Positions 1-43,390 of a stretch of 64,000 bases of DNA are shown in pieces. Location: NCBI GenBank assembly GCA_038065955.1, contig JBBTPY010000001.1:92061-156060 (forward strand), given 5' to 3'. The notes under the pieces were generated by a model. It saw nothing but the letters and a program-made list of their open reading frames with translations, was not told the origin of the DNA and did not search any database. The position numbers were made by a program, and so were the translations under genes. The number at the start of each line of letters is the position of its first letter. The first letter of the stretch is position 1. The stretch comes from Patescibacteria group bacterium (GTDB lineage: Bacteria > Patescibacteriota > Minisyncoccia > UBA6257 > UBA9933).

Positions 1-1691
1 TCGCCCGTAATCATTATCACACGCATATCCGCCGCTCTTACTCTTTGCATTGCTTCTTTAACTTCACTACGAAGCGCGTCATTCATACCAAAAAAACCAA
101 CAAAAGTGAGCGGCGGTATTGTGTCTCCATCAATGCTCCGCCCGGTATCTGGATTGGTGGCATAGGCAACCACCCTAAACCCTGCTTGCGCAAGATTGTG
201 GAAAACCGATTCTAATTCTTTTTTCTTTTTTTCATTTAAATTTTCGGCTCCATCTTTGTGCCAGATATGCCTGCAAAGCTCAAGCACTTTTTCTGGCGCG
301 CCGACGACAGTAAGAAAATTTTTGCCGTCAACCGCTCGAATTGTGGCGTGATATTTTTTTTGATAATTAAACGGCAATTCAAAAATTTTTAATGCCTCAT
401 GTTCCAACACCTCATGCCTAAATCCGATTTTTTCGGAAAACACCAACATCGCCGCTTCTGTCGGGTCGCCGGCAATCTTCCATAGTTTGGTTTCTTCCGA
501 AAAAGACAATCGCGCGTTGGCGCAGAATGCCGCAATTCTTCCACTAAAAAGCAGTTCTGGATAATTTAAGGGGTCAGTGGTTTTACCATCAAAAATTGCT
601 TCACCTTTTGGCTCGTATCCGTCGCCTGTGATATTAAAAATTTTGCCGTCCACATACACGCGCTGAATAACCATCTCATTTCTCGTGAGCGTTCCGGTTT
701 TGTCCACCGCAATGACTTTTGTTTGCCCCAATGCTTCCACCGCCTGCAATCGCTTCACCAGCACATTGCGCTTTGACATTCTGTGAACACCGGTTGCCAG
801 AACAAGAGTTATTACAACCGGCAGACCCTCCGGAATGATAGAGACCGAAAGCGCCACCGCCACGGTAAACATTTCTTTGAGGGATTTACCAGAAAAAACG
901 CCAAGAATAATTAAGGAGACACTGATGATGGTTGTGGTAATAACAATAATCCGAGAGAGATAGCGGATATTGGTTTTTAACGGAATCTCGGTATCAAGAG
1001 TAGTAATCCTTTGAGCAATTTTTCCAATCTCTGTTGCGAGTCCTGTCGCCACAACAACTGCGGTGCCGTTTCCGCTTAAAATGTGCGTACCCTTAAATAC
1101 CATATTTTTCTGATCCGCCACCGGCAGATTGTCGGACGGCAATACTGTATCGGTTTTGGTCACTGGTTCTGATTCTCCGGTAAGACTTGCCTCATCAACT
1201 TTCAGGATATTGGAGAAAATAATCCGCGCATCAGCTGGCGTTTTTTCTCCTTCTTGCAATACAATAATGTCCCCAGGCATTATCTCGGCATCTGGGATGA
1301 TAAGTTCTTTCCCGTCTCGCAGCACAGTTGCCGAAGTTTCGGCGAACCTTTTTAAGGCAAGAAGTGTGTTTTGCGCTTTACCTTCTTGGACCATTCCCAG
1401 AATCGCATTAAAAAGAAGCACCGCAAAAATAATCAAAGCGTCAATAGTTGATCCCATGGCAAAAACAATACCGGCTGCGGCAAAGAGAATATAAATCAGC
1501 GGATTTTGAAATTGACGCAGAAAAATAACGGGAAGACTGTCCACCTTCCCTTCGGGAAGTTTATTGAGTCCGTATTTTTGAAAACGCCCGATCGCTTCTT
1601 CTTTTGTTAGCCCATGTTCACGCGAACCAAGCACACCAAAAACCTCAGGAACTGTTTTTGTATGCCATGAAATTTGTTGCGTTATTGCCAT
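1..1691 (-). CDS. P-type cation-transporting ATPase (P2-type, Ca2+/Mg2+-like), N-terminal ~560 aa; C-terminus lies beyond window start
   Basis: Minus-strand translation from ATG at 1691 gives MAITQQISWHTKTVPEVF...; contains the phosphorylation motif DKTGTLT and TGES, typical P-type ATPase layout; ORF runs off position 1. Confidence 0.85.
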   Translation of the reverse strand, partial: MAITQQISWHTKTVPEVFGVLGSREHGLTKEEAIGRFQKYGLNKLPEGKVDSLPVIFLRQFQNPLIYILFAAAGIVFAMGSTIDALIIFAVLLFNAILGMVQEGKAQNTLLALKRFAETSATVLRDGKELIIPDAEIMPGDIIVLQEGEKTPADARIIFSNILKVDEASLTGESEPVTKTDTVLPSDNLPVADQKNMVFKGTHILSGNGTAVVVATGLATEIGKIAQRITTLDTEIPLKTNIRYLSRIIVITTTIISVSLIILGVFSGKSLKEMFTVAVALSVSIIPEGLPVVITLVLATGVHRMSKRNVLVKRLQAVEALGQTKVIAVDKTGTLTRNEMVIQRVYVDGKIFNITGDGYEPKGEAIFDGKTTDPLNYPELLFSGRIAAFCANARLSFSEETKLWKIAGDPTEAAMLVFSEKIGFRHEVLEHEALKIFELPFNYQKKYHATIRAVDGKNFLTVVGAPEKVLELCRHIWHKDGAENLNEKKKKELESVFHNLAQAGFRVVAYATNPDTGRSIDGDTIPPLTFVGFFGMNDALRSEVKEAMQRVRAADMRVIMITG

Positions 1692-1695
1692 AAGA

Positions 1696-1899
1696 TTATT
1701 TGATCAATTCCTCAATTGCGACATTGAGGGCCTTCGCGATTTTGCTCACTACAAAAACGGACGGCTTCTTGATGACACCAGTTTCAATCTTTGTAAGTGT
1801 CGTATAAGCGACATCTGCTTTGCGAGCAAAATCGTCTTGGGAAAGCCCCAGTTTTAATCGCAATTTCCTTATTTTTAGTCCTAGCTGATTACTTTCCAT
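1696..1899 (-). CDS. XRE-family helix-turn-helix transcriptional regulator (67 aa)
   Basis: LGLKIRKLRLKLGLSQDDFARKADVAYTTLTKIETG is a classic Cro/C1 HTH signature. Confidence 0.8.
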   Translation of the reverse strand: MESNQLGLKIRKLRLKLGLSQDDFARKADVAYTTLTKIETGVIKKPSVFVVSKIAKALNVAIEELIK

Positions 1900-1934: not shown

Positions 1935-2525
1935 CACAGTATTATACTAACAGATATGAAGACTTTTTTCAATTTTATCGTTGCAAATAAGCCCGCTCGA
2001 ACTTCGCCAAAAGAAATCAGCGGAGCAAGCGGAGGATTCCTCCCCAAACCCCTCCTCCTCCGCTTGCGACATCCGAATTCAAAAAAGATTAGCCGAGTGT
2101 TTTGCGAAATCCTTTCCCCAAAAAATAGTTTTCGCAAAACCGAGTCCGCATTAGTCCCGCCACCTGCCCGAATACTTGGAGGGCAGAACACCAAAGAAAA
2201 ATGTCCTTTCCTTTTTAGAAGAAATTGGTCGCGCGCAAATCCGAAAAGCAAGGAACATTTTTCTTTGGTGTCCGCCGAGGCTCTGCGAGGCGGTGGCGGG
2301 GCTGATTCATTCGTTCAGTTTCCGCTCGAAAAAAGTTCGCGCAAAGTGTATAATTACAGCACCAGTAGTAACTTGTTCGGAATTAAGAATATGGAGCGAT
2401 TTTGCAGAAGCCAAAATCGCGCTTTGATTTTCGCCAAAACCCTTTCCGCCGTAGGCGGACGCGGGGGTCAGTGCGCGGATTTTGCTTTGCAAAATCCGCT
2501 CCTCTTTCCTAATCCTGAAAATGTC
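1935..2525. ncRNA. GC-rich (~48% vs ~36% background) structured non-coding region; candidate large ncRNA of unresolved identity
   Basis: No credible ORF (frames are low-complexity and overlap a tRNA); >=4 perfect 9-12 bp hairpins (gcggattttgc/gcaaaatccgc; gcgattttg/caaaatcgc; gttttgcgaaa/tttcgcaaaac; gcaagcggagga/tcctccgcttgc). Minus strand has RNase P CR-V-like CGGGCUUA and GGGCAGG; plus strand has GGGGCUGAUUC identical to the E. coli tmRNA 5' end but no tRNA-like 3' domain follows. Confidence 0.3.
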
Positions 2526-2530
2526 TCTGC

Positions 2531-2615
2531 TGGTGCGCGGGAGAGGACTCGAACCTCCAAGCCTTGCGGCGCTACCACCTCAAGGTAGTGCGTTTGCCAA
2601 TTTCGCCACCCGCGC
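2531..2615 (-). tRNA. tRNA-Leu (anticodon GAG inferred), type II with long variable arm
   Basis: Reverse complement GCGCGGGTGGCGAAATTGGCAAACGCACTACCTTGAGGTGGTAGCGCCGCAAGGCTTGGAGGTTCGAGTCCTCTCCCGCGCACCA; 7-bp acceptor, T-loop GGTTCGAGTCC, long variable arm, CCA encoded. Confidence 0.75.
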
Positions 2616-2948: not shown

Positions 2949-3728
2949 TTATATACTACTATCGATACTTTCATCTGTCAATCGCAAAATCAATTTATTT
3001 AATTCCTCCGATAATTCAACTTCAATTTTAATATGACCGCCTTCCATCAAATTAAATTCCAAAGATTCAGCGTGAAGAAACTGGCGCTTAAGACCGAAAG
3101 GATTTTGTTTTCGGCTATAAAGCAAATCTCCGACAATCGGATGGCCGATAGAACTCAAATGGACTCTGATTTGATGAGTGCGGCCGGTTTTCGGAAATAC
3201 TTTAACTAATGAAAAAAATGGAAAAAACTTTATAACTTTATATTCCGTAATCGCTTCTTTGAGCATTTTGCCTTTTCCTATTGTCCTTTTAACGGTTTTA
3301 GTAATGCCAATTGGTTTGTCAATTATGCCGCTTCTTGGTTCAACTTTGCCCCAAACCAACGCCAAATAAGTTTTTTTTATTTCATTTTTTTCAAAAAGAC
3401 TTTTCAAATAATCAAAATATTTTTGATTTTTAGCGATTAAAACCACGCCCGAAGTGTCTTTGTCTAAACGATGAACAATGCCCGGCCGAATATTTTCAGT
3501 CGCCTGCCCGCCGGCCATGCCTACCGGCAGGCAGGCCATGCCTACCGGCAGGCAGGCAGGCAAGTCGCCGACGCTTTTAACTTCCGGATAATTTTTTAAA
3601 AGCCAATCAACTAAAGTTTCTTCCGAATCCTTAAACTTTGAGCTTTTAACTTTATGAATTAAAACACCGACGGGCTTATTAACCGCCAGAAAATTTTCAT
3701 CTTCGTAAATAATTTCCGGAGAAAGCAT
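2949..3728 (-). CDS. RluA-family pseudouridine synthase (RluD-like)
   Basis: HRLDKDTSGVVLIAKN catalytic motif; carries an in-frame duplicated insert ACLPVGMACLPVGMAGG encoded by a GC-rich tandem repeat at 3503-3565. Confidence 0.8.
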   Translation of the reverse strand: MLSPEIIYEDENFLAVNKPVGVLIHKVKSSKFKDSEETLVDWLLKNYPEVKSVGDLPACLPVGMACLPVGMAGGQATENIRPGIVHRLDKDTSGVVLIAKNQKYFDYLKSLFEKNEIKKTYLALVWGKVEPRSGIIDKPIGITKTVKRTIGKGKMLKEAITEYKVIKFFPFFSLVKVFPKTGRTHQIRVHLSSIGHPIVGDLLYSRKQNPFGLKRQFLHAESLEFNLMEGGHIKIEVELSEELNKLILRLTDESIDSSI

Positions 3729-4545: not shown

Positions 4546-4841
4546 AAAAATAAAATTTTAAATTTTAAAAATTTTTTAAAGAACATATACCGAGCGCGGC
4601 AGTTTTTCAATATCTTTTTGCGATATTCTTATCGCAATATATTAATATTGAAGCTTTCCGTAGTTTCCGAAACTATATTGCCCAGTCGGTAAACACTCCT
4701 TTCTCCCACATAAGTTTTGGGGATTCATATAGATTCACTATATGAATAAACACCCTGGTCCTGCATCTTTCAATTTTTTACTCCATACATATACGCTTTT
4801 CTTTTTAACCCATCAGACATATGGCCGTCACCTCCTTTCTG

Positions 4842-5018
4842 TTAATACTTGTACTTGTCGTCCAAACTTGGGCTGTCGCCTTTTGCCGACCCTATCAGTT
4901 GTTTGCCTTCGTAAATTTTCCTTTTGTTTTCATCTACGCGATTCCTGTCTCCTCTTATCCACTTCTTCATATTCTCTCTTTTCTTTTTCTCAATATCCAC
5001 ATATCCTTCCTTAGACAT
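4842..5018 (-). CDS. Small basic hypothetical protein (58 aa), below the ORF-track size cut-off
   Basis: MSKEGYVDIEKKKRENMKKWIRGDRNRVDENKRKIYEGKQLIGSAKGDSPSLDDKYKY; strong SD GGAGAGGAGG 8 nt upstream of the ATG; the plus-strand ORFs overlapping here are low-complexity. Confidence 0.45.
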   Translation of the reverse strand: MSKEGYVDIEKKKRENMKKWIRGDRNRVDENKRKIYEGKQLIGSAKGDSPSLDDKYKY

Positions 5019-5103
5019 TTTTTTACCTCCTCTCCTTATTTTTTATTTTAATAAAATTAACTATGTCAAAAATCTATTATAAAGTATAATGTATTCATAA
5101 ATT

Positions 5104-17998: not shown

Positions 17999-18005
17999 TT
18001 TTATG

Positions 18006-18077
18006 CGTCCCCACAAGGAATCGAACCTTGATCTTGAGTTCCGCAAACTCACACTCTATCCATTGAGCTATGGGGAC
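18006..18077 (-). tRNA. tRNA-Arg (GCG inferred)
   Basis: Revcomp GTCCCCATAGCTCAATGGATAGAGTGTGAGTTTGCGGAACTCAAGATCAAGGTTCGATTCCTTGTGGGGACG; anticodon stem TGAGT/ACTCA, loop TTGCGGA. Confidence 0.65.
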
Positions 18078-18082
18078 ATTTT

Positions 18083-18601
18083 CTAAAATCTTATCAATTT
18101 TAACAAAACATCGCTCATTGAAATTTTAATCTCCTCTCGCGGCAAAAATTTCAAAAGCGATTCGCTGATTTTTAATTCATCTTCGGCGAAAATATTAATC
18201 TTTAAATACGGCGCAAATTTTGATTTAAGCCTTAAAACCAATTCTTTATATTCCTCGTTAACCGGATGAATGTCAAAACAGTCAATTTCTTTAAATGAAT
18301 AAAACTTTTCGTCCGCTTTCTTGCCGGCTTCCCCGTCGGGAAATTTAATTAATATGCCGTCACCGTCTATCTTAAATTCCCAAACAGCCGGAAAACGATT
18401 AGCGAAAGAAAATACCACCGCTTCGGCAATTACCACAAAAATCGCAAATAAAAAATTCTTCTGCCATAAAGCCAGTATCAATAAAATTGCGGCAATAATC
18501 AAGCTCAGCCAATACCAAGAAACATCCTTGACGGTATATTCAAATTCCGGCGCCCGCCAGACGAACGGCTCAACTTGTTTTTTAATATTTTTATTCGCCA
18601 T
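18083..18601 (-). CDS. Hypothetical membrane protein (172 aa)
   Basis: Two N-terminal TM helices; no recognisable motif; the start codon abuts the tRNA-Ser 3' end. Confidence 0.5.
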   Translation of the reverse strand: MANKNIKKQVEPFVWRAPEFEYTVKDVSWYWLSLIIAAILLILALWQKNFLFAIFVVIAEAVVFSFANRFPAVWEFKIDGDGILIKFPDGEAGKKADEKFYSFKEIDCFDIHPVNEEYKELVLRLKSKFAPYLKINIFAEDELKISESLLKFLPREEIKISMSDVLLKLIRF

Positions 18602-18602
18602 G

Positions 18603-18684
18603 CGGAGGGTAGAGGAGTCGAACCTCTAAGGGCTTGCGCCCGCCGCTTTTCAAGAGCGGTGCCATGCCATTAGGCGAACCCTCC
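18603..18684 (-). tRNA. tRNA-Ser (TGA), type II
   Basis: Revcomp GGAGGGTTCGCCTAATGGCATGGCACCGCTCTTGAAAAGCGGCGGGCGCAAGCCCTTAGAGGTTCGACTCCTCTACCCTCCG; long variable arm, anticodon loop CTTGAAA. Confidence 0.75.
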
Positions 18685-18721
18685 ATACTAATATTAATGT
18701 ATATTATATAATAATTTTTCG

Positions 18722-18766
18722 AAAATTGGCAAAAAAAATATGGGGAAGCAGATATCTGCTTCCCCA
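18722..18766 (-). terminator. Rho-independent terminator of the 75-aa Cys-rich peptide gene
   Basis: Perfect palindrome ggggaagcagatatctgcttcccc followed on the minus strand by atatttttttt. Confidence 0.7.
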
Positions 18767-18889
18767 TAGAGAGGAGGAATGAAGGAATGGATAACCTTCA
18801 TTACTTTGGGGGGCTCTCGAGCCCACAAGCGTAAATCTCGAGAAAGCTTTACTTACGCTTATGGGGGTTAGCCACCCCACAAAGATTCA

Positions 18890-19117
18890 TTATCGTAAAA
18901 GTTCATTTTTACAATTACGATTTGCCTTAAGGCATGAAAACTTAGGTTTTGATTTGCAATCCTTTCTTTCAAGACCGCACTCCCCAATTTTGTTTATGTT
19001 TTTGATTTTTTGCTGAATCATAGTTGCTGTCGCGGCTATAAAAACGAGCTCTTTTCCATCACAAAATCCACTACGAATTCCCTCATTTATAAAATTAGCC
19101 ATATTGTTAAAATCCAT
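18890..19117 (-). CDS. Small Cys-rich protein (75 aa), hypothetical
   Basis: MDFNNMANFINEGIRSGFCDGKELVFIAATATMIQQKIKNINKIGECGLERKDCKSKPKFSCLKANRNCKNELLR; SD AAAGGAG 7 nt upstream; own terminator; 5 Cys in the C-terminal 30 aa. Confidence 0.5.
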   Translation of the reverse strand: MDFNNMANFINEGIRSGFCDGKELVFIAATATMIQQKIKNINKIGECGLERKDCKSKPKFSCLKANRNCKNELLR

Positions 19118-19302
19118 AACAGTCTCCTTTCAGATACAAAAACAAAAAAGGTTATTAAAGAAAAAACTATTCCCTCCTCAATTTAGTTAAGCAAATCCAT
19201 TCATCCATTCATATTTATCACCGCCTCCTTCCTTTTAAAATTATTTAAATGACCTATTAATATATTAGGCAGATTTTCGAAAAAGTCAACCCCTATCAAT
19301 TT

Positions 19303-19374
19303 TGGACCCGAGCGGGATCGAACCGCTGATCTCCTCATTGCAAATGAGGCATTCTACCACTGAACTACGGGCCC
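19303..19374 (-). tRNA. tRNA-Ala (TGC)
   Basis: Revcomp GGGCCCGTAGTTCAGTGGTAGAATGCCTCATTTGCAATGAGGAGATCAGCGGTTCGATCCCGCTCGGGTCCA; G3.U70 Ala identity pair. Confidence 0.8.
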
Positions 19375-19463
19375 GATTATTTTGGACTCGGCGAGAACCC
19401 AGCACAACAGCAAAACTGTGTGTACGGGGCGCGTTGAACTCGTGTCTCCATCCATCACCATTC

Positions 19464-19537
19464 TGGTGGACCCACCGGGAATTGAACCCGAACCTCGGCA
19501 ATGCGAATGCCGCGTAATGCCGTTTTACTATGGGCCC
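19464..19537 (-). tRNA. tRNA-Ala (CGC)
   Basis: Revcomp GGGCCCATAGTAAAACGGCATTACGCGGCATTCGCATTGCCGAGGTTCGGGTTCAATTCCCGGTGGGTCCACCA; G3.U70, CCA encoded. Confidence 0.65.
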
Positions 19538-19551
19538 ACCGCAAAGGTGAA

Positions 19552-19590
19552 GGACGAATGCGACGTATTGCCAACTATACTACAAGCCCG
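19552..19590 (-). pseudogene. Truncated tRNA 5' half (acceptor plus D-arm only) between tRNA-Pro(CGG) and tRNA-Ala(CGC)
   Basis: Revcomp GGGCTTGTAGTATAGTTGGCAATACGTCGCATTCGTCC has a canonical acceptor/D-arm but no anticodon, T-arm or 3' acceptor partner before the next tRNA begins. Confidence 0.45.
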
Positions 19591-19602
19591 TTTATCGCTT
19601 TG

Positions 19603-19674
19603 TCGGGCCGCCGAGAATCGAACTCGGTCTCTACGCACCCGAAGCGCATGTACTACCGGTATACTACGGCCCGA
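19603..19674 (-). tRNA. tRNA-Pro (CGG)
   Basis: Revcomp CGGGCCGTAGTATACCGGTAGTACATGCGCTTCGGGTGCGTAGAGACCGAGTTCGATTCTCGGCGGCCCGA; flanked by inverted repeat aaagcgat that extends the acceptor helix by about 10 bp. Confidence 0.7.
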
Positions 19675-21368: not shown

Positions 21369-21440
21369 GCCCTTGTAGTGAAATGGATATCACGACAGGC
21401 TTCGAACCTGTTATTGGGGGTTCGAATCCCTCCAAGGGCA
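21369..21440 (+). tRNA. tRNA-Arg (TCG inferred)
   Basis: GCCCTTGTAGTGAAATGGATATCACGACAGGCTTCGAACCTGTTATTGGGGGTTCGAATCCCTCCAAGGGCA; anticodon loop CTTCGAA. Confidence 0.65.
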
Positions 21441-21449
21441 CATAAAAAG

Positions 21450-21522
21450 GCATCCCTAGCTCAATTGGCAGAGCAAATCCCTCTTAAGGATGAGGTTCTG
21501 GGTTCGACTCCCAGGGGATGCA
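21450..21522 (+). tRNA. tRNA-Lys (CTT)
   Basis: GCATCCCTAGCTCAATTGGCAGAGCAAATCCCTCTTAAGGATGAGGTTCTGGGTTCGACTCCCAGGGGATGCA. Confidence 0.75.
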
Positions 21523-21533
21523 CATAAAATTTT

Positions 21534-21608
21534 GCGGGTATCGTATAGTGGCCATTATGCGACCTTGCCAAGGTCGAGATAGGGGTTCGATTCCCCTTAC
21601 CCGCTCCA
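21534..21608 (+). tRNA. tRNA-Gly (GCC), CCA encoded
   Basis: GCGGGTATCGTATAGTGGCCATTATGCGACCTTGCCAAGGTCGAGATAGGGGTTCGATTCCCCTTACCCGCTCCA. Confidence 0.8.
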
Positions 21609-27988: not shown

Positions 27989-30417
27989 TTTTTTTCTTTT
28001 TGATAAACTTTCTGCGTTGTTTTAATAATCGTATCCGAATTCAAAGAAATGCTGTTAATCCCCTGTCCCACCAAAAATTCGGCGAATCCTTCTATATCCG
28101 ACGGCGCTTGACCGCAAATTCCGATGTATTTGCCTTTTTCTTTGCATTTTTTGATAACTTCGGAAATCAATTTTTTTACTGATTCGTCGTTTTCATTAGT
28201 AATGCCGCGAATCATTTCATTGCCGTCACGGTCAATGCCGACAGTTAACTGCGTCAAATCGTTTGAACCAATAGACATTCCGTCAAAAATTTCCAAAAAT
28301 TCATCGGCTAAAATGACATTTGAAGGAATTTCACACATGACATATACTTTGACTTTTGACATTTGACTTTTGACATTTGACTCTAAAAACAAACCGTTTT
28401 TTTTCATAATTTCCAAAACTTTTTTGCCTTCTTCCGGCGTCCGGCAAAACGGCACCATTACTTCCACATTATCCAAGCCCATCTCCTCGCGGACTTTTTT
28501 AACGGCTTTAAGTTCCAAAATAAACGCCGCCGCGAAATTCGGATGATAATATCTTGAAGCGCCGCGCCAGCCGATCATCGGATTTTCCTCCGACGGCTCG
28601 TACAATTCCCCGCCGATAAGCGTTCTGTATTCATTTGTTTTAAAATCAGAAAATCTTAAAATTACCGGTTTCGGATAAAAAGCCGCGCCAATTTTCGCGA
28701 TACCGTAAGCGAGCTTATCAACATAAAATTGAGTTTTGTCTTTGTAGCCAATAATTTTTTTATCAATCGCGTTTTTAATTTTCGCCGGCATTTTTTTATA
28801 ATTTATCAAAGCATTTGGGTGAATCCCGATATCTCCGGCGATAATAAATTCTTCTCTCGCCAATCCCACGCCGTCATTCGGCAAAAAAGATTTTTCAAAA
28901 GCGGTTTCCGGCGTGGCAATATTAAGCATTATTTTAGTTTTCGGCCGCGACAATTTTTTAATATCGTGTTCAATTATTTTGAATTTTAAAGCGCCATCAT
29001 AAACAAAACCATCGCTGCCGGTCGTATCAACCGTAATCATTTGGCCAGTTTTTATTTTTCGAGTGGCGCTTTCCGAACCGACAATACAAGGAATGCCAAG
29101 TTCGCGGCTTACTATTGCCGCATGAGATGTTCGTCCTCCTTTGTCCGTTACAATCGCCGAAGCGATTTTCATAATCGGTTCCCAATCCGGGTCTGTCATA
29201 TCAGTAATCAAAATTTCACCGACCTTAAATTGTCCGATATTTTTAGCGCCTAAAATTACACGCGCCTTACCCGTTGCGATTTTACTTCCAACCGATGCCC
29301 CTTTGACTAAAACATTTAACCTTTGACCTTTAACATCTGACAAAATATATTCTTTTATTTTGGAGAAATCGCGGCTGGCATGTATAGTTTCCGGTCTTGC
29401 CTGGACAATATATAACTCACCCGTTTTCCCATCCTTTGCCCACTCCATATCCATTGGCGTCCATTTGCCGTTTTTTGTCGAATAATGCTCTTCTATTAAA
29501 ATCCCCCATTTTGCCAGTTTTAAAATTTCGTCATCGCTTAAAACAAAACTTTCTTTTTCTTTTTGAGAAGTATTAATTATTTTCGTATTTTTAACGGAAA
29601 CGCCTTTGCCTTCCGAATAAATCATTTTTTGATTTTTAACGCCGAGTTTTTTATCAATAATCGCATTAGTTTTTTTGAAAACTAAAAATTCATCCGGCGT
29701 CACTTCTCCTTGAACAATCATTTCGCCAAGTCCCCATGAACCGTTTATCAAAACCGAATCCTTAAAACCGGATTCCGTGTCCAAAGTAAACATTACGCCG
29801 GAACAGCTCAAATCCGAGCGAATCATTTTTTGAACGCCGACCGATAAAGCGACTTTAAAATGGTCAAATCCTTTATCGACGCGATAAGAAACGGCGCGGT
29901 CGGTAAAAAGCGAAGCCATCGCCGATTTTACCGCTTTCAAAACTTCTTTGTCTCCGCGGATATTCAAATAAGTTTCATGCTCGCCGGCAAAAGAAGCGCC
30001 GGGCAAATCCTCGGCCGTGGCGCTTGAACGTACGGCAACATCAACGTTTTTGCCGTATTCTTTCTCTGTTTGCCGATACGCCTTAACAATTTCTTGTTTT
30101 AAATCATCCGGAAATTCCGCTTTTTTTATCGTTTCGCGGATAAGTTTTCCACGCCTTGATAAATCTTTTAAATTTTTTGTGTTTAAACCGCTAAGCGCCT
30201 CTTTTATAAATTTTTTCAATCTCATTTCTTCTAAAAAATAGCGATAAGCTTCCGCAGTAACAACAAACCCGCCCGGAATCTTTACTCCCTGCCTGCCGGC
30301 AGGCAGGCTTTTCGGCGTTAAATTTTGAATCATTTCGCCGAGAGAGGCGTTCTTTCCGCCCACCTCGGCAATGTCTTTTATGCCGACTTCGTTTAATTTT
30401 TTGATGAAAATTTTCAT
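27985..30417 (-). CDS. ppsA: Phosphoenolpyruvate synthase (pyruvate, water dikinase)
   Basis: GGKNASLGEM ATP-grasp N-terminus, central phosphohistidine domain, C-terminal PEP-utilising domain; start at MKIFIKKLNEVG; in-frame inserts VKSQMSKVKVYVM (octamer repeats 28336-28384) and a 22-bp perfect palindrome (30287-30308). Confidence 0.9.
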   Translation of the reverse strand: MKIFIKKLNEVGIKDIAEVGGKNASLGEMIQNLTPKSLPAGRQGVKIPGGFVVTAEAYRYFLEEMRLKKFIKEALSGLNTKNLKDLSRRGKLIRETIKKAEFPDDLKQEIVKAYRQTEKEYGKNVDVAVRSSATAEDLPGASFAGEHETYLNIRGDKEVLKAVKSAMASLFTDRAVSYRVDKGFDHFKVALSVGVQKMIRSDLSCSGVMFTLDTESGFKDSVLINGSWGLGEMIVQGEVTPDEFLVFKKTNAIIDKKLGVKNQKMIYSEGKGVSVKNTKIINTSQKEKESFVLSDDEILKLAKWGILIEEHYSTKNGKWTPMDMEWAKDGKTGELYIVQARPETIHASRDFSKIKEYILSDVKGQRLNVLVKGASVGSKIATGKARVILGAKNIGQFKVGEILITDMTDPDWEPIMKIASAIVTDKGGRTSHAAIVSRELGIPCIVGSESATRKIKTGQMITVDTTGSDGFVYDGALKFKIIEHDIKKLSRPKTKIMLNIATPETAFEKSFLPNDGVGLAREEFIIAGDIGIHPNALINYKKMPAKIKNAIDKKIIGYKDKTQFYVDKLAYGIAKIGAAFYPKPVILRFSDFKTNEYRTLIGGELYEPSEENPMIGWRGASRYYHPNFAAAFILELKAVKKVREEMGLDNVEVMVPFCRTPEEGKKVLEIMKKNGLFLESNVKSQMSKVKVYVMCEIPSNVILADEFLEIFDGMSIGSNDLTQLTVGIDRDGNEMIRGITNENDESVKKLISEVIKKCKEKGKYIGICGQAPSDIEGFAEFLVGQGINSISLNSDTIIKTTQKVYQKEKK

Positions 30418-42590: not shown

Positions 42591-43022
42591 ATGATTATCG
42601 CCGCCAATAAACGAGCGTATTTTGACTACCAAATTCTTGAAACTTTTGAGGCCGGGATTGAATTAAAAGGATTTGAAGTTAAATCAATAAAAAACGGCAG
42701 GATAAACCTCGCCGGTTCTTACGCCGTCATCCGCGATAATCAAGCGTGGCTTCTTAACGCCGATATTCCGGCTTACCAACCGAAGAACGCGCCGAAAAAT
42801 TACGATTCCAAAAGAACGCGGCGGCTTTTACTGAAAAAATTGGAAATAAAAAACTTAATCGGCCGCATTCATGAAAAAGGCTTGACTTTGACTCCTTTAA
42901 AAGTTTATACTAAAAATCACAGAATAAAGATGGAAATCGGGTTAGGGAAAAGCAGAAAAAAAGCGGACAAAAGAGAATTAATAAAGAAAAGGGATGTTAA
43001 ACGAGAAATCAGACGGGAATGA
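42591..43022 (+). CDS. smpB: SsrA-binding protein
   Basis: 143 aa; N-terminal NKRAYFDY...E.GIEL.G.EVKS and basic C-terminal tail. Confidence 0.9.
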   Translation: MIIAANKRAYFDYQILETFEAGIELKGFEVKSIKNGRINLAGSYAVIRDNQAWLLNADIPAYQPKNAPKNYDSKRTRRLLLKKLEIKNLIGRIHEKGLTLTPLKVYTKNHRIKMEIGLGKSRKKADKRELIKKRDVKREIRRE

Positions 43023-43029
43023 CAGGAAT

Positions 43030-43390
43030 CGATGACAGCACTTTTATAAAATCGCAAGCCGAGGACGATTCGTCACCTCGTCAATCATCGAATCAAAATC
43101 ATATCTGCCAAAAACAGATTAGCCAATTATTTGGCTCCCGCTTTCGCTTTCGCCTAAGCGGCATCCGCTTTTAATCGCTTGAATTAAAAGACCGGGTGTA
43201 ATATTTTAAGCTATGGTTGATGTTCCGCCGAAAACATCTGCTGAAAATTATCGGCAAAGAGTTTTGAAGATTTCGTTAAGTTTTAACTTCTAAATTCTAT
43301 ATCCTAACTTGACTAAGCTCGTAGAAATTTTATAAATTTATTGTCAGACGGGGCTTCAATGCCCCCATTTCCACACAAATTTAAAAATTA
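43030..43390 (+). ncRNA. ssrA: Candidate tmRNA (ssrA) region immediately downstream of smpB; speculative
   Basis: No protein ORF. A short frame GCC AAU UAU UUG GCU CCC GCU UUC GCU UUC GCC UAA (43122-43157) = ANYLAPAFAFA*, tag-like and preceded by an A-rich tract with UAG as in known tmRNAs. Stable hairpins after the stop; 3' GGGGCUUCAAUGCCCC T-arm-like hairpin. The 5'/3' acceptor pairing could not be confirmed. Confidence 0.3.

What the first reader, a model, noticed from the sequence alone, without database searches (positions are those of the whole stretch)
1935..2525. 590-bp GC-rich hairpin-dense non-coding block next to tRNA-Leu: unidentified structured RNA
GC is ~48% in a ~36% genome. 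There is no plausible protein, since the six-frame ORFs are low-complexity and run into the tRNA. At least four perfect 9-12-bp hairpins are present. The minus strand has RNase P-like CGGGCUUA and GGGCAGG. The plus strand has an exact GGGGCUGAUUC (the E. coli tmRNA 5' end) but no tRNA-like 3' end. It could be RNase P RNA, 6S, a degenerate tmRNA, or something new.
Basis: seen in the sequence. Interest (0 to 1): 0.6.

Follow-up and report, generated by a model that had tools for sequence, protein, structure and literature searches.

The report
Structured end of a tRNA-inserted gene cassette
The hairpin-rich block beside tRNA-Leu is not RNase P, tmRNA or 6S RNA but the non-coding end of a small mobile gene cassette inserted at the tRNA's 3' end, and it contains a roughly 380-base folded module that is conserved across many ultra-small (CPR/Patescibacteria) bacteria and matches no described family in the libraries and literature I searched.

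Summary
In detail: 1935-2525 is GC-enriched (46.9% against 39.0% for the window), non-coding and packed with perfect hairpins. The named candidates do not hold. Rfam finds nothing here, the real tmRNA is at 43015-43376, and a relative that carries the element has a normal RNase P RNA elsewhere.

The block has two parts.
- **Arm region (2365-2530):** an attachment-site scar made of two inverted tRNA-trailer/hairpin arms. It includes an intact attP-like junction at 2345-2387.
- **Core (1985-2358):** one copy of a conserved ~380-nt module.

I found 191 copies of the core in 171 contigs from many CPR lineages. Its helices covary: 22 of 56 pairs show compensatory changes, 0 of 500 shuffles reach that number, and 97% of cells are paired. 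Copies bracket accessory-gene operons as inverted pairs (18 convergent, 2 divergent, 0 direct). An XRE regulator gene follows the inner end in 47 of 133 copies. A large serine recombinase (LSR) lies at the outer end in 43 of 159. The far end of the element carries a short direct repeat of the tRNA's 3' end that changes with the tRNA.

Best reading: this is the tRNA-proximal end of a ~4.1-kb recombinase-less cassette, mobilised in trans. What the conserved core does, and whether it acts as DNA or RNA, is unresolved.

The parts
2531..2615 (-). tRNA-Leu(GAG), the integration target. Its 3' end borders the element.
   Evidence: ARAGORN and Rfam tRNA at 53 bits.
2530..2536 (-). GCACCAG: the tRNA acceptor end plus 1 nt. 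This is the proximal copy of the 7-bp direct repeat (attL crossover region). The distal copy lies about 1.6 kb beyond the window start, at L001 10511-10517.
   Evidence: Junction comparison. The repeat changes with the tRNA: GCACCAG in L001, GCAC in L023 and L038, GCA in L024, CCACCA for tRNA-Ala in L055.
2460..2529 (-). Arm L: the tRNA-side arm of the attachment region, with a perfect 11-bp hairpin at 2475-2499.
   Evidence: It is about 65% alike to arm R in inverted orientation (blastn self-match 2359-2422 with 2536-2473).
2445..2459 (.). Centre hairpin TCCGCC-GTA-GGCGGA, where the two inverted arms meet. In autonomous relatives (L023, L033) the recombinase gene sits here, between the arms.
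   Evidence: The loop is flipped (TAC) in L023 and L033.
2365..2444 (+). Arm R: GTAGTAACTTGTTCGGAATTAAG (2365-2387) followed by a terminator-like hairpin at 2396-2420 with a T-run. This is the same sequence that follows the tRNA 3' end in L023, L024, L033, L038 and L055.
2345..2387 (+). Intact attP-like junction: core outer end (..GTGTATAATTACA), then GCACCA (2359-2364), then the arm-R sequence.
   Evidence: Inferred from comparing proximal and distal junctions in five loci.
2326..2354 (+). Outward-facing promoter-like site, TCGAAA-17-TATAAT, at the core's outer end. It points across the att junction, toward the recombinase gene in autonomous relatives.
   Evidence: 10 of 12 matches. Such a site is present in 74 of 186 copies against 9.3 expected from shuffles.
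1985..2358 (-). Conserved folded core module, copy 1 of an inverted pair. Sub-parts:
- variable 5' domain, 2303-2358
- junction domain, 2154-2302: closing stem 2294-2302 / 2154-2162, long hairpin 2187-2272, hairpin 2164-2186
- hairpin P, 2099-2140, with conserved loop CUAUUUUUUGGGGAAAGGA
- terminal hairpin, 2025-2067, with conserved loop AGGAGGGGUUUGGGGAGGAAU
- T-run, 2005-2013
   Evidence: A second copy, 98% identical and inverted, lies in L001 10140-10523. 191 copies were found in 171 loci. Alignment A2 and RNAalifold. Covariation. Column-to-window map.
1944..1972 (-). Promoter-like site (TTGAAA-17-TAGTAT, preceded by TG) for the XRE-cargo operon.
   Evidence: Promoter-like sites toward XRE occur in 33 of 47 spacers against 12 expected.
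1696..1899 (-). XRE-family HTH regulator (67 aa), the first gene of the cassette.
   Evidence: Pfam HTH_3/HTH_31. The same arrangement occurs in 47 of 133 copies. The >=90%-identity cluster spans several CPR lineages.
1..1691 (-). Cargo gene: a P-type cation ATPase of 894 aa that runs off the window start.
   Evidence: Pfam Cation_ATPase_N / E1-E2_ATPase / Hydrolase on the intact copy in L011 and in L001.

Best explanation
The block is the tRNA-proximal, non-coding end of a ~4.1-kb integrative cassette. The cassette comprises the arm region, core 1, the XRE gene, a P-type ATPase, a 67-aa ORF and inverted core 2. It is inserted at the 3' end of tRNA-Leu(GAG) and bounded by a 7-bp direct repeat of the tRNA end (GCACCAG). 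It carries no recombinase of its own. A large serine recombinase (LSR) of a neighbouring resident element lies directly beyond its distal end and presumably mobilises it in trans. That step is inferred.

**Window 2365-2530** is the attachment scar. It consists of two inverted arms, each a tRNA trailer plus a hairpin, and includes an unused attP-like junction.

**Window 1985-2358** is one of two inverted copies of a conserved folded module that brackets the cargo operon.
- Its variable outer ~55 nt forms one arm of the attachment site and carries an outward promoter.
- Its conserved inner ~300 nt is a four-way junction plus two hairpins with invariant loops. I take this part to be a cis-acting end module that works as folded or palindromic nucleic acid.
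- I propose that the module organises recombination and divergent transcription at the element's ends.
- I also propose that it supplies conserved homology through which cargo is swapped between strains.

Shown: family membership, covariation, architecture, the tRNA-matched direct repeats, and the LSR and XRE associations.
Inferred: the att-arm role, trans-mobilisation, and the cis-acting role of the core.
For: **Second copy and strain variation**
- A second copy, 98% identical and inverted, lies on the far side of the cargo and next to an LSR.
- Strains with identical rplS and tRNA share DNA up to the core's inner end (~2000-2005) and then carry different cargo (L002, L003).

**Family and architecture**
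- There are 191 copies in 171 loci of many CPR lineages. Adjacent pairs are 18 convergent, 2 divergent and 0 direct.
- Complete examples with core, cargo, inverted core, LSR and a convergent tRNA are L174 and L212.

**Attachment at tRNA ends**
- Distal junctions carry a repeat of the tRNA end that changes with the tRNA.
- 11 of 21 LSR genes abut a convergent tRNA at their 3' end.

**Associated genes**
- An LSR lies at the outer end in 43 of 159 copies.
- LSR is the only recombinase family that recurs among 299 neighbouring ORFs.
- An XRE gene follows the inner end in 47 of 133 copies.
- Cargo consists of accessory and defence genes.

**Promoters and domain conservation**
- An outward promoter-like site occurs in 74 of 186 copies against 9.3 expected from shuffles.
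- The 5' domain tracks LSR divergence (rho 0.34). The junction domain does not (rho 0.07) and stays 91% identical where LSRs are ~46% identical.

**Structure and non-coding status**
- 97.2% of cells are paired. 22 pairs have double changes against 13.0 +/- 1.5 in shuffles (0 of 500), and slid controls give 3-11 such pairs.
- The region is non-coding.
Against: - No excision product, empty site or circular junction was observed directly. Mobility is inferred from comparative junctions.
- LSRs normally need only ~50-bp att sites, so a ~300-nt conserved structured module is not explained by known LSR biochemistry.
- Compensatory changes and conserved loops and internal mismatches are what a functional single-stranded fold (RNA or ssDNA) would show. 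This fits a transcript at least as well as duplex DNA.
- The two arms of a pair need not be alike (67% in L044). A partner is no closer than the best copies in other genomes. The arms are therefore not kept identical, as replicative terminal repeats would be.
- Some elements lack the proximal core (L038), so the core is not essential for residence at the tRNA.
Confidence: 0.55

Rival explanations
1. The core is a functional structured RNA encoded by the element. One version is a leader or riboregulator on the window's plus strand. It would be transcribed from a promoter divergent from XRE, run through the core and the att region toward the recombinase gene, and end at the plus-strand terminators at 2396-2420 and 2475-2499. 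The other version is a minus-strand RNA made by read-through from the tRNA and ended by the terminal hairpin plus U-run.
For: - Covarying helices with conserved loops and conserved internal mismatches.
- G-U exceeds A-C on the minus strand, 75:36 cells.
- A tRNA lies on the same strand just upstream in 13 copies.
- Promoter-like sites pointing from the XRE spacer into the core occur in 22 of 47 spacers against 10.8 expected. In the window such a site is at 1903-1930.
- Proper intrinsic terminators lie on the plus strand downstream.
Against: - No good promoter precedes the core on the minus strand. Inward promoter-like sites occur in 18 of 186 copies against 8 expected.
- The strand asymmetry is weak and points to the strand that lacks a promoter (26 against 17 pairs).
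- In one sub-family the terminal-hairpin loop is the reverse complement, C-rich instead of G-rich. That is awkward for a strand-specific RNA loop.
- There is no Rfam relative and no expression data.
Confidence: 0.27
2. The core is a single-strand or cruciform DNA element for establishing or replicating the excised or imported element, such as a single-strand origin, a primosome-assembly site or a host-factor (HU/RuvA-type) binding site. With one copy in each orientation, either strand would carry a functional fold.
For: - The pairs are inverted with constant polarity.
- The junction domain has pseudo-two-fold symmetry and matches itself on the opposite strand.
- Junction-domain conservation is independent of the element's own proteins, which suggests a conserved host partner.
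- A loop flip is tolerated in one sub-family.
Against: - No replication genes were found among 299 neighbouring ORFs.
- There are no hits in plasmid or phage collections.
- The idea is purely by analogy and nothing here tests it.
Confidence: 0.12
3. It is a housekeeping structured RNA (RNase P RNA, tmRNA or 6S RNA) too diverged for Rfam.
For: The size is right for RNase P.
Against: - No match at E<=10 to any of these models in 1.1 kb searched with relaxed filters.
- The tmRNA is present elsewhere in the window at 111 bits.
- RNase P class A is found elsewhere in a relative that also carries the element.
- The element is sporadic, occurs at 2 or more copies per element, is inverted around cargo, and is more alike across CPR classes than housekeeping genes would be.
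Confidence: 0.01
4. It is a degraded or real protein-coding gene, since 669 database 'proteins' match it.
For: the search for homologous proteins returns 669 hits with E-values down to 1e-106.
Against: - Homologues switch reading frame along the same DNA.
- 86% of indels are not multiples of three and there is no third-position periodicity.
- There are no Pfam domains, ORFs are open on both strands, and NCBI annotates no CDS here.
Confidence: 0.01

Closest known systems
Tycheposons and other tRNA-targeting integrative islands (Hackl et al., bioRxiv 10.1101/2020.12.28.424599)
   Same: - Cargo-carrying elements in streamlined genomes that integrate at tRNA 3' ends.
- They leave partial tRNA repeats and pile up next to the tRNA.
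- A minority use large serine recombinases.
- Cargo consists of accessory or defence genes.
   Different: - Tycheposons mostly use tyrosine recombinases and often carry replication genes.
- In the passages of that paper I searched I found no conserved ~380-nt folded module or inverted pair bracketing the cargo.
- Here the repeat of the tRNA end is only 3-7 bp.
Staphylococcal/enterococcal cassette chromosomes (SCC; Ccr large serine recombinases). The comparison rests on my own knowledge.
   Same: - LSR-driven cassettes insert at the 3' end of one conserved gene.
- They form tandem arrays.
- They include recombinase-less cassettes mobilised in trans.
- They are bounded by short direct repeats.
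   Different: - The SCC target is rlmH, not tRNAs.
- The terminal inverted repeats are short (tens of bp).
- There is no large covarying structured module.
Integron attC sites
   Same: Recombination sites flanking exchangeable cassettes, where folded single-strand structure rather than sequence is conserved, with compensatory changes.
   Different: - attC sites are 57-141 nt and are recognised by a tyrosine integrase.
- They lie in direct orientation, one per cassette.
- Here the modules are ~380 nt with highly conserved sequence, are inverted, and are associated with a serine recombinase.
Large ornate bacterial RNAs that sit next to tRNAs (ROOL, GOLLD)
   Same: Hundreds of nucleotides long, multi-helix, often adjacent to tRNA genes and in mobile contexts, with function unknown.
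   Different: - Neither Rfam model matches.
- There is no evidence of transcription here.
- ROOL and GOLLD are not described as inverted pairs around cargo.
IS110 bridge RNAs / non-coding ends that guide a recombinase
   Same: A structured non-coding region beside a recombinase gene at the element's end. The part nearest the crossover co-varies with the recombinase.
   Different: - IS110 enzymes are DEDD/Tnp recombinases, not Resolvase/Recombinase/Zn-ribbon LSRs.
- Bridge RNAs are ~150-250 nt with target- and donor-complementary loops.
- I made no systematic search for guide-like complementarity between the core's loops and the tRNA target.

Membership tests
Bacterial RNase P RNA (Rfam RF00010/RF00011) | Match to the covariance model (P4 helix with CR-I/CR-V, universal core) | tested here: not met
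   There is no RNase P hit at E<=10 in 1700-2800 on either strand. The model works in these organisms, scoring 105.7 bits in L081 at a different place.
Bacterial RNase P RNA (Rfam RF00010/RF00011) | Single essential copy per genome, vertically inherited | tested here: not met
   There are two inverted copies around one cassette. Distribution is sporadic and the junction domain is ~91% identical across CPR classes.
tmRNA (RF00023) | tRNA-like domain formed by the 5' and 3' ends, plus a tag reading frame | tested here: not met
   ARAGORN and Rfam find no tmRNA here. The true tmRNA is at 43015-43376 at 111 bits. GGGGCTGATTC is one strand of the element's closing stem.
6S RNA / SRP RNA / other Rfam families | Match to any of 4227 covariance models | tested here: not met
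   There are only sub-threshold hairpin look-alikes (plastid psbA 3'UTR, miRNA precursors) on the long hairpin. Nothing matches on the element in 15 related loci.
Site-specific integrative element at a tRNA gene | Element bounded on one side by an intact tRNA 3' end and on the other by a direct repeat of that end | tested here: met
   GCACCAG / GCACCAG flank 4.1 kb in L001 (= window). Repeats are matched to the tRNA in L023, L024, L038 and L055 (CCACCA for tRNA-Ala).
Site-specific integrative element at a tRNA gene | A site-specific recombinase gene at the element's edge next to the tRNA | tested here: met
   The domain set is Resolvase + Recombinase + Zn_ribbon_recom. 11 of 21 LSR genes abut a convergent tRNA. 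LSR is present in relatives; the window's own cassette lacks one, and the nearest LSR is just beyond its distal end.
Site-specific integrative element at a tRNA gene | Presence/absence polymorphism or excision products | tested here: inconclusive
   Near-identical strains carry different cargo after the core (L001, L002, L003). L038 has the same XRE-ATPase operon directly after a tRNA without the proximal core. No empty site or circular junction was recovered.
Transposon/MITE with terminal inverted repeats | The two ends are inverted repeats of each other, bounded by a target-site duplication of fixed length at arbitrary targets | tested here: not met
   Inverted copies exist, but targets are tRNA 3' ends and the repeat is the tRNA end itself with variable length of 3-7 bp. 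No DDE or HUH transposase was found among 299 neighbours. The arms can be only 67% alike.
Conserved structured nucleic acid (RNA-family standard) | Helices supported by compensatory changes above controls | tested here: met
   22 of 56 pairs have double changes against 13.0 +/- 1.5 in shuffles (0 of 500). 97.2% of cells are paired, against 42-56% when partners are slid.
Conserved structured nucleic acid (RNA-family standard) | Transcribed, with a defined strand and ends | not testable with these tools
   No expression data are available. The G-U:A-C ratio is 75:36 in cells and 26:17 in pairs. Promoter scans are ambiguous.
Group I / group II intron | Match to intron catalytic-core models; insertion within a host gene with restorable exons | tested here: not met
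   There are no Intron_gpI, gpII or D1D4 hits at E<=10. The element lies after the tRNA's CCA, not inside it.

The most novel reading that the evidence does not exclude
The conserved ~300-nt junction-plus-hairpins part of the core is a new class of large folded nucleic acid, RNA or single-stranded DNA. It would act with, or on behalf of, large serine recombinase elements, for example as a scaffold or directionality cofactor for recombination, or as a decoy or binding platform for a highly conserved host factor. Such a role would explain why it stays ~91% identical in elements whose recombinases have diverged to ~46% identity and that sit in different CPR classes. Nucleic-acid partners are not known for this recombinase class.
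Probability: 0.18. Interest if true: 0.85.

Novelty: new variant of a known kind. Interest (0 to 1): 0.6.

Why it matters
CPR/Patescibacteria have tiny genomes, and little is known about how they exchange genes. This finding points to a widespread family of small cassettes that carry defence systems, methylases, transporters and similar genes. The cassettes insert at tRNA 3' ends with a large serine recombinase and share one extremely conserved, base-pair-covarying non-coding module at both cargo boundaries.

If the module is a recombination or transfer signal, it marks exchangeable gene cassettes across CPR lineages. It could then serve as a probe for their mobilome. If it is an RNA or DNA cofactor of the recombinase, it would be new biochemistry for an enzyme class widely used in genome engineering.

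It also explains hundreds of 'hypothetical proteins' in databases as spurious ORF calls over this element.

Tried and rejected
- **Rfam:** gathering and E<=10 scans of the region, the window and 15 related loci found nothing on the element.
- **Protein-coding reading:** rejected by frame switching, indel lengths and lack of periodicity.
- **First viral scan:** the loop sequence TTTTTTGGGGAAAGGATTT gave 7 unrelated coding hits, i.e. false positives.
- **Second viral scan:** the long-hairpin pattern gave no hits.
- **BLAST against plasmid and phage collections:** no match.
- **Extra copies in the window:** none. Only the palindromic self-match appears.
- **Arms kept identical, as in replicative terminal repeats:** not supported.
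- **Hairpin stems as operators co-evolving with the XRE protein:** rejected. L014, L015 and the window have identical XRE proteins but three different compensated stem versions.
- **Other mobilising enzymes (DDE, HUH, tyrosine recombinase, reverse transcriptase):** none recurs among 299 neighbouring ORFs.
- **tRNA-like or tmRNA-like fold around GGGGCUGAUUC...GCACCA on the plus strand:** only 4 bp of acceptor pairing by eye, and ARAGORN finds nothing.
- **Literature searches** for a prior description of CPR serine recombinase elements, CPR structured RNAs or Parcubacteria RNA motifs: nothing relevant. The closest concept found is tycheposons.
Full report
**1. What is at the coordinates**

On the minus strand the gene order is:
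- rplS (2945-2619)
- tRNA-Leu(GAG) (2615-2531)
- the flagged block
- an XRE-type HTH gene (1899-1696)
- a P-type ATPase that runs off the window start

The block is 46.9% GC in a 39.0% window, which puts it in the top 2% of 590-bp windows. Both strands fold far better than shuffles, with z = -5.4 and -7.4.

**2. It is none of the named RNAs and it is not a protein**

Rfam at gathering thresholds finds 12 tRNA genes (ARAGORN finds 13) and a tmRNA at 43015-43376, and nothing in the block. A relaxed scan of 1700-2800 (E<=10) gives only chance matches to hairpin-shaped families. A relative that carries the same element has a normal class-A RNase P RNA elsewhere on the contig (L081).

The 222-aa plus-strand ORF over the block has 669 database 'homologues'. 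When aligned, these read the same DNA in different frames. For example, GGQNTKEKCPFLFRRNWSRANPKSKEHF and EGRTPKKNVLSFLEEKIGRAQIRKARNIF are two frames of the same DNA. In the DNA alignment, 49 of 57 indel events are not multiples of three and variable columns show no codon periodicity. NCBI's annotation of the source MAG ('Patescibacteria group bacterium') gives consecutive protein accessions to the HTH protein and L19, so it calls no CDS here.

**3. The block is a repeat, and part of a large family**

A 695-kb contig essentially identical to the window (L001) holds a second copy of window 2370-1985. That copy is 98% identical and inverted. It lies on the other side of the HTH-ATPase genes, about 1.2-1.6 kb beyond the window's start, and directly next to a large serine recombinase (LSR) gene.

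Contigs from strains with identical rplS and tRNA share the DNA down to about window 2000-2005 and then carry different genes (L002, L003).

Scanning one genome per species gave 78 loci. They come from Yanofsky-, Wildermuth-, Lipton-, Taylor-, Nomura-, Vogel-, Doudna-, Uhr-, Kerfeld-, Falkow- and Berkelbacteria, Microgenomates and others. The same pattern found nothing in IMG/VR, and the whole block found nothing in the phage and plasmid collections.

In all, 191 copies containing the central domain were found in 171 loci.

**4. The core is a conserved fold**

An alignment of 50 copies (A2) gives a consensus structure with these helices:
- a closing stem (window 2294-2302 / 2154-2162) that encloses a short helix, the long hairpin (2187-2272) and a third hairpin (2164-2186), i.e. 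a four-way junction
- hairpin P (2099-2140) with an invariant loop, CUAUUUUUUGGGGAAAGGA
- a terminal hairpin (2025-2067) with an invariant loop, AGGAGGGGUUUGGGGAGGAAU, followed by a T-run

The covariation numbers are as follows:
- 97.2% of cells are standard pairs.
- 22 of 56 pairs show changes on both sides, against 13.0 +/- 1.5 in column shuffles (0 of 500 reach it).
- When partners are slid, only 3-11 pairs show such changes.

Even near-identical copies differ by compensated changes. In hairpin P the stem is GCG/CGC, GGC/GCC or GCC/GGC in the window, L014 and L015 respectively. Those three encode identical XRE proteins, so the stems are not operators co-evolving with that protein.

The strand cannot be assigned. 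G-U outnumbers A-C on the minus strand by only 75:36 cells and 26:17 pairs. One sub-family also has the terminal-hairpin loop reverse-complemented, CCCCCCACACCCCCC.

Conservation is uneven:

| Domain | Median pairwise identity |
|---|---|
| Outer 5' domain | 52% |
| Junction domain | 84.5% |
| Hairpin P | 79% |
| Terminal hairpin | 84% |

**5. Architecture: a cassette bracketed by inverted cores**

Adjacent copies on one contig are 18 convergent (inner ends facing each other), 2 divergent and 0 direct. They are separated by 2-10 kb of cargo.

In 13 of the 14 pairs whose cargo I examined, the cargo is a single-direction operon in sense with one of the two copies; L050 has genes on both strands. 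Its content is accessory and varied:
- P-type ATPase
- DNA methylases
- GmrSD and type III restriction proteins
- Cap15/CBASS-like and AbiEii-like proteins
- ABC transporters
- zinc-ribbon membrane proteins

A 65-73-aa XRE-HTH gene starts 2-160 nt after the inner end, on the same strand, in 47 of 133 copies. That is about 70% of what is possible if only one copy of each pair leads the operon.

An LSR gene lies within 600 nt of the outer end in 43 of 159 copies (30 divergent, 13 co-directional). LSR (Resolvase, Recombinase, Zn_ribbon_recom) is the only recombinase family that recurs among 299 neighbouring ORFs.

A tRNA gene lies within 600 nt of the outer end in 30 of 159 copies. I estimate that to be several-fold above the density of tRNA genes in such genomes.

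**6. Evidence for integration at tRNA 3' ends**

Of 21 LSR genes with sequence beyond their 3' end, 11 abut or overlap a convergent tRNA gene. The tRNAs are Leu, Glu, Arg, Gln, Thr, Ser and Ala.

Complete examples read: core, cargo, inverted core, LSR, then a convergent tRNA (L174, L212; also L023, L039, L185).

At the far end of the element, the core's outer terminus (...TATAATTACA) is followed by a short repeat of the tRNA's acceptor end, and then by unrelated DNA:

| Locus | tRNA | Repeat |
|---|---|---|
| L001 (= the window's genome) | Leu(GAG) | GCACCAG |
| L023, L038 | Leu(CAA) | GCAC |
| L024 | truncated tRNA (partial Rfam match; end like L023/L038) | GCA |
| L055 | Ala | CCACCA |

A repeat that changes with the tRNA is the classical mark of site-specific insertion.

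The sequence right after the tRNA in L023, L024, L033, L038 and L055 is GTAGTAACTTGTTCGGAATTAAG or a close variant. It appears in the window's plus strand at 2365-2387, joined through GCACCA (2359-2364) to the core's outer end. This is an intact attP-like junction.

The region I call 'arms' (2365-2530) is thus two inverted copies of [tRNA end + trailer + hairpin], which meet at a small centre hairpin (2445-2459). In L023 and L033 the LSR gene sits between the two arms. In the window nothing does.

I therefore read the window's element as a recombinase-less cassette of ~4.1 kb. It is bounded by the 7-bp repeat and inserted between tRNA-Leu(GAG) and a resident LSR element. In that resident element the LSR is followed by a second XRE gene and a DUF2130 gene. 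This resembles the tandem accretion seen in other tRNA-linked islands. That step is inference.

**7. What the parts probably do**

The outer end of the core carries an outward-facing sigma-70-like promoter: 2326-2354, TCGAAA-17-TATAAT. Such a site is present in 74 of 186 copies against 9.3 expected, whereas inward-facing sites are near chance at 18 against 8. Where the LSR is divergent from the core, this promoter points at it, across the att junction and the arm's terminator-like hairpin.

Across 15 LSR-core pairs, 5'-domain similarity rises with LSR similarity (rho 0.34). Junction-domain similarity does not (rho 0.07), staying at 91% where LSRs are ~46% identical. The outer ~55 nt therefore behaves like recombinase-specific DNA, i.e. 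an att arm plus promoter. The inner ~300 nt answers to something else that is highly conserved.

The XRE operon has its own promoter-like site between the core and the gene (1944-1972; present in 33 of 47 spacers against 12 expected).

Cargo differs between strains whose DNA is 99.7% identical right up to the core's inner end. Cores of related cassettes are also mosaics. The cores evidently also serve as homology for cargo exchange.

I commit to the reading that the core is a cis-acting end module of the element, with confidence about 0.55 for the whole statement. The main rival, at about 0.27, is that it is a functional transcript, either a leader toward the recombinase gene on the plus strand or a tRNA-linked RNA on the minus strand. 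A single-strand-DNA or host-factor role comes third.

**8. Comparison with what is known**

By concept the element is closest to two groups:
- tRNA-targeting cargo islands such as tycheposons, a minority of which use LSRs
- SCC-type LSR cassette arrays with recombinase-less members (from my own knowledge)

It meets the defining features of a site-specific integrative element that I could test: the tRNA boundary, the matched direct repeat and the recombinase at the edge. Excision itself was not observed.

It fails the tests for RNase P, tmRNA, other Rfam families, introns and classical TIR transposons.

What is not covered by any of these is the ~380-nt covarying module present as an inverted pair. 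I found no description of it in the searchable literature.

**9. Verdict**

It is best filed as a new variant of a known kind: an LSR-type tRNA-integrating cassette family in CPR bacteria, with a novel conserved structured end module of unknown mechanism. Interest is 0.6.

Noticed in passing
window 43015-43376 (+): A bona fide tmRNA gene (Rfam RF00023, 111 bits, full length). ARAGORN did not report it in its tRNA/tmRNA scan of the window.
   Followed up: partly
window 3513-3557, inside ORF 2949-3728 (-): A perfect 2.1-copy tandem duplication of a 21-nt GC-rich unit (GGCCATGCCTACCGGCAGGCA) lies in frame within an RluA-type pseudouridine synthase gene, giving ...ACLPVGMACLPVGM.... It contains the palindrome CCTACCGGCAGG, which also occurs at 30292. 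A similar GC-rich palindromic insertion sits in the long-hairpin loop of the element copy in L038.
   Followed up: partly
L001 10507-12327 (about 1.6-3.4 kb beyond the window start): A resident element lies next to the cassette: a large serine recombinase (split into two ORFs in this assembly, probably by a frameshift error) is divergent from a second XRE-HTH gene and a DUF2130 gene, with no core between them.
   Followed up: partly
L047-L054, L057, L059, L060, L078, L099 (for example L049 3900-4460): A sub-family of the element has a different 5' domain and a terminal hairpin whose loop is the reverse complement of the usual one (C-rich CCCCCCACACCCCCC). Only the four-way-junction domain is shared with the main family.
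   Followed up: partly
L038 1055-1420: A Liptonbacteria contig has the same XRE-ATPase operon (XRE 96% identical over residues 20-68, the part that aligned). The operon sits directly after tRNA-Leu(CAA) plus 23 nt of the arm sequence, without the proximal core. Only the distal inverted core is present.
   Followed up: partly
L141 58-13567: Recombinase genes lie on both sides of one inverted core pair (LSR, core, 9.3 kb of cargo, inverted core, LSR), a symmetric arrangement not explained by the simple model.
   Followed up: no
window 1-21700: The density of tRNA genes is unusually high: 13 in the first 22 kb, including clusters at 18005-19673 and 21369-21608. There is a strongly AT- and C-skewed stretch around 4700-5100 with only low-complexity ORFs.
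   Followed up: no
protein databases (P0001-P0120 and 549 more): Hundreds of 'hypothetical proteins' of 120-260 aa in public collections are spurious ORF calls across this element, on either strand. Some are fused to real domains of neighbouring genes, for example IPPT and SET.
   Followed up: partly
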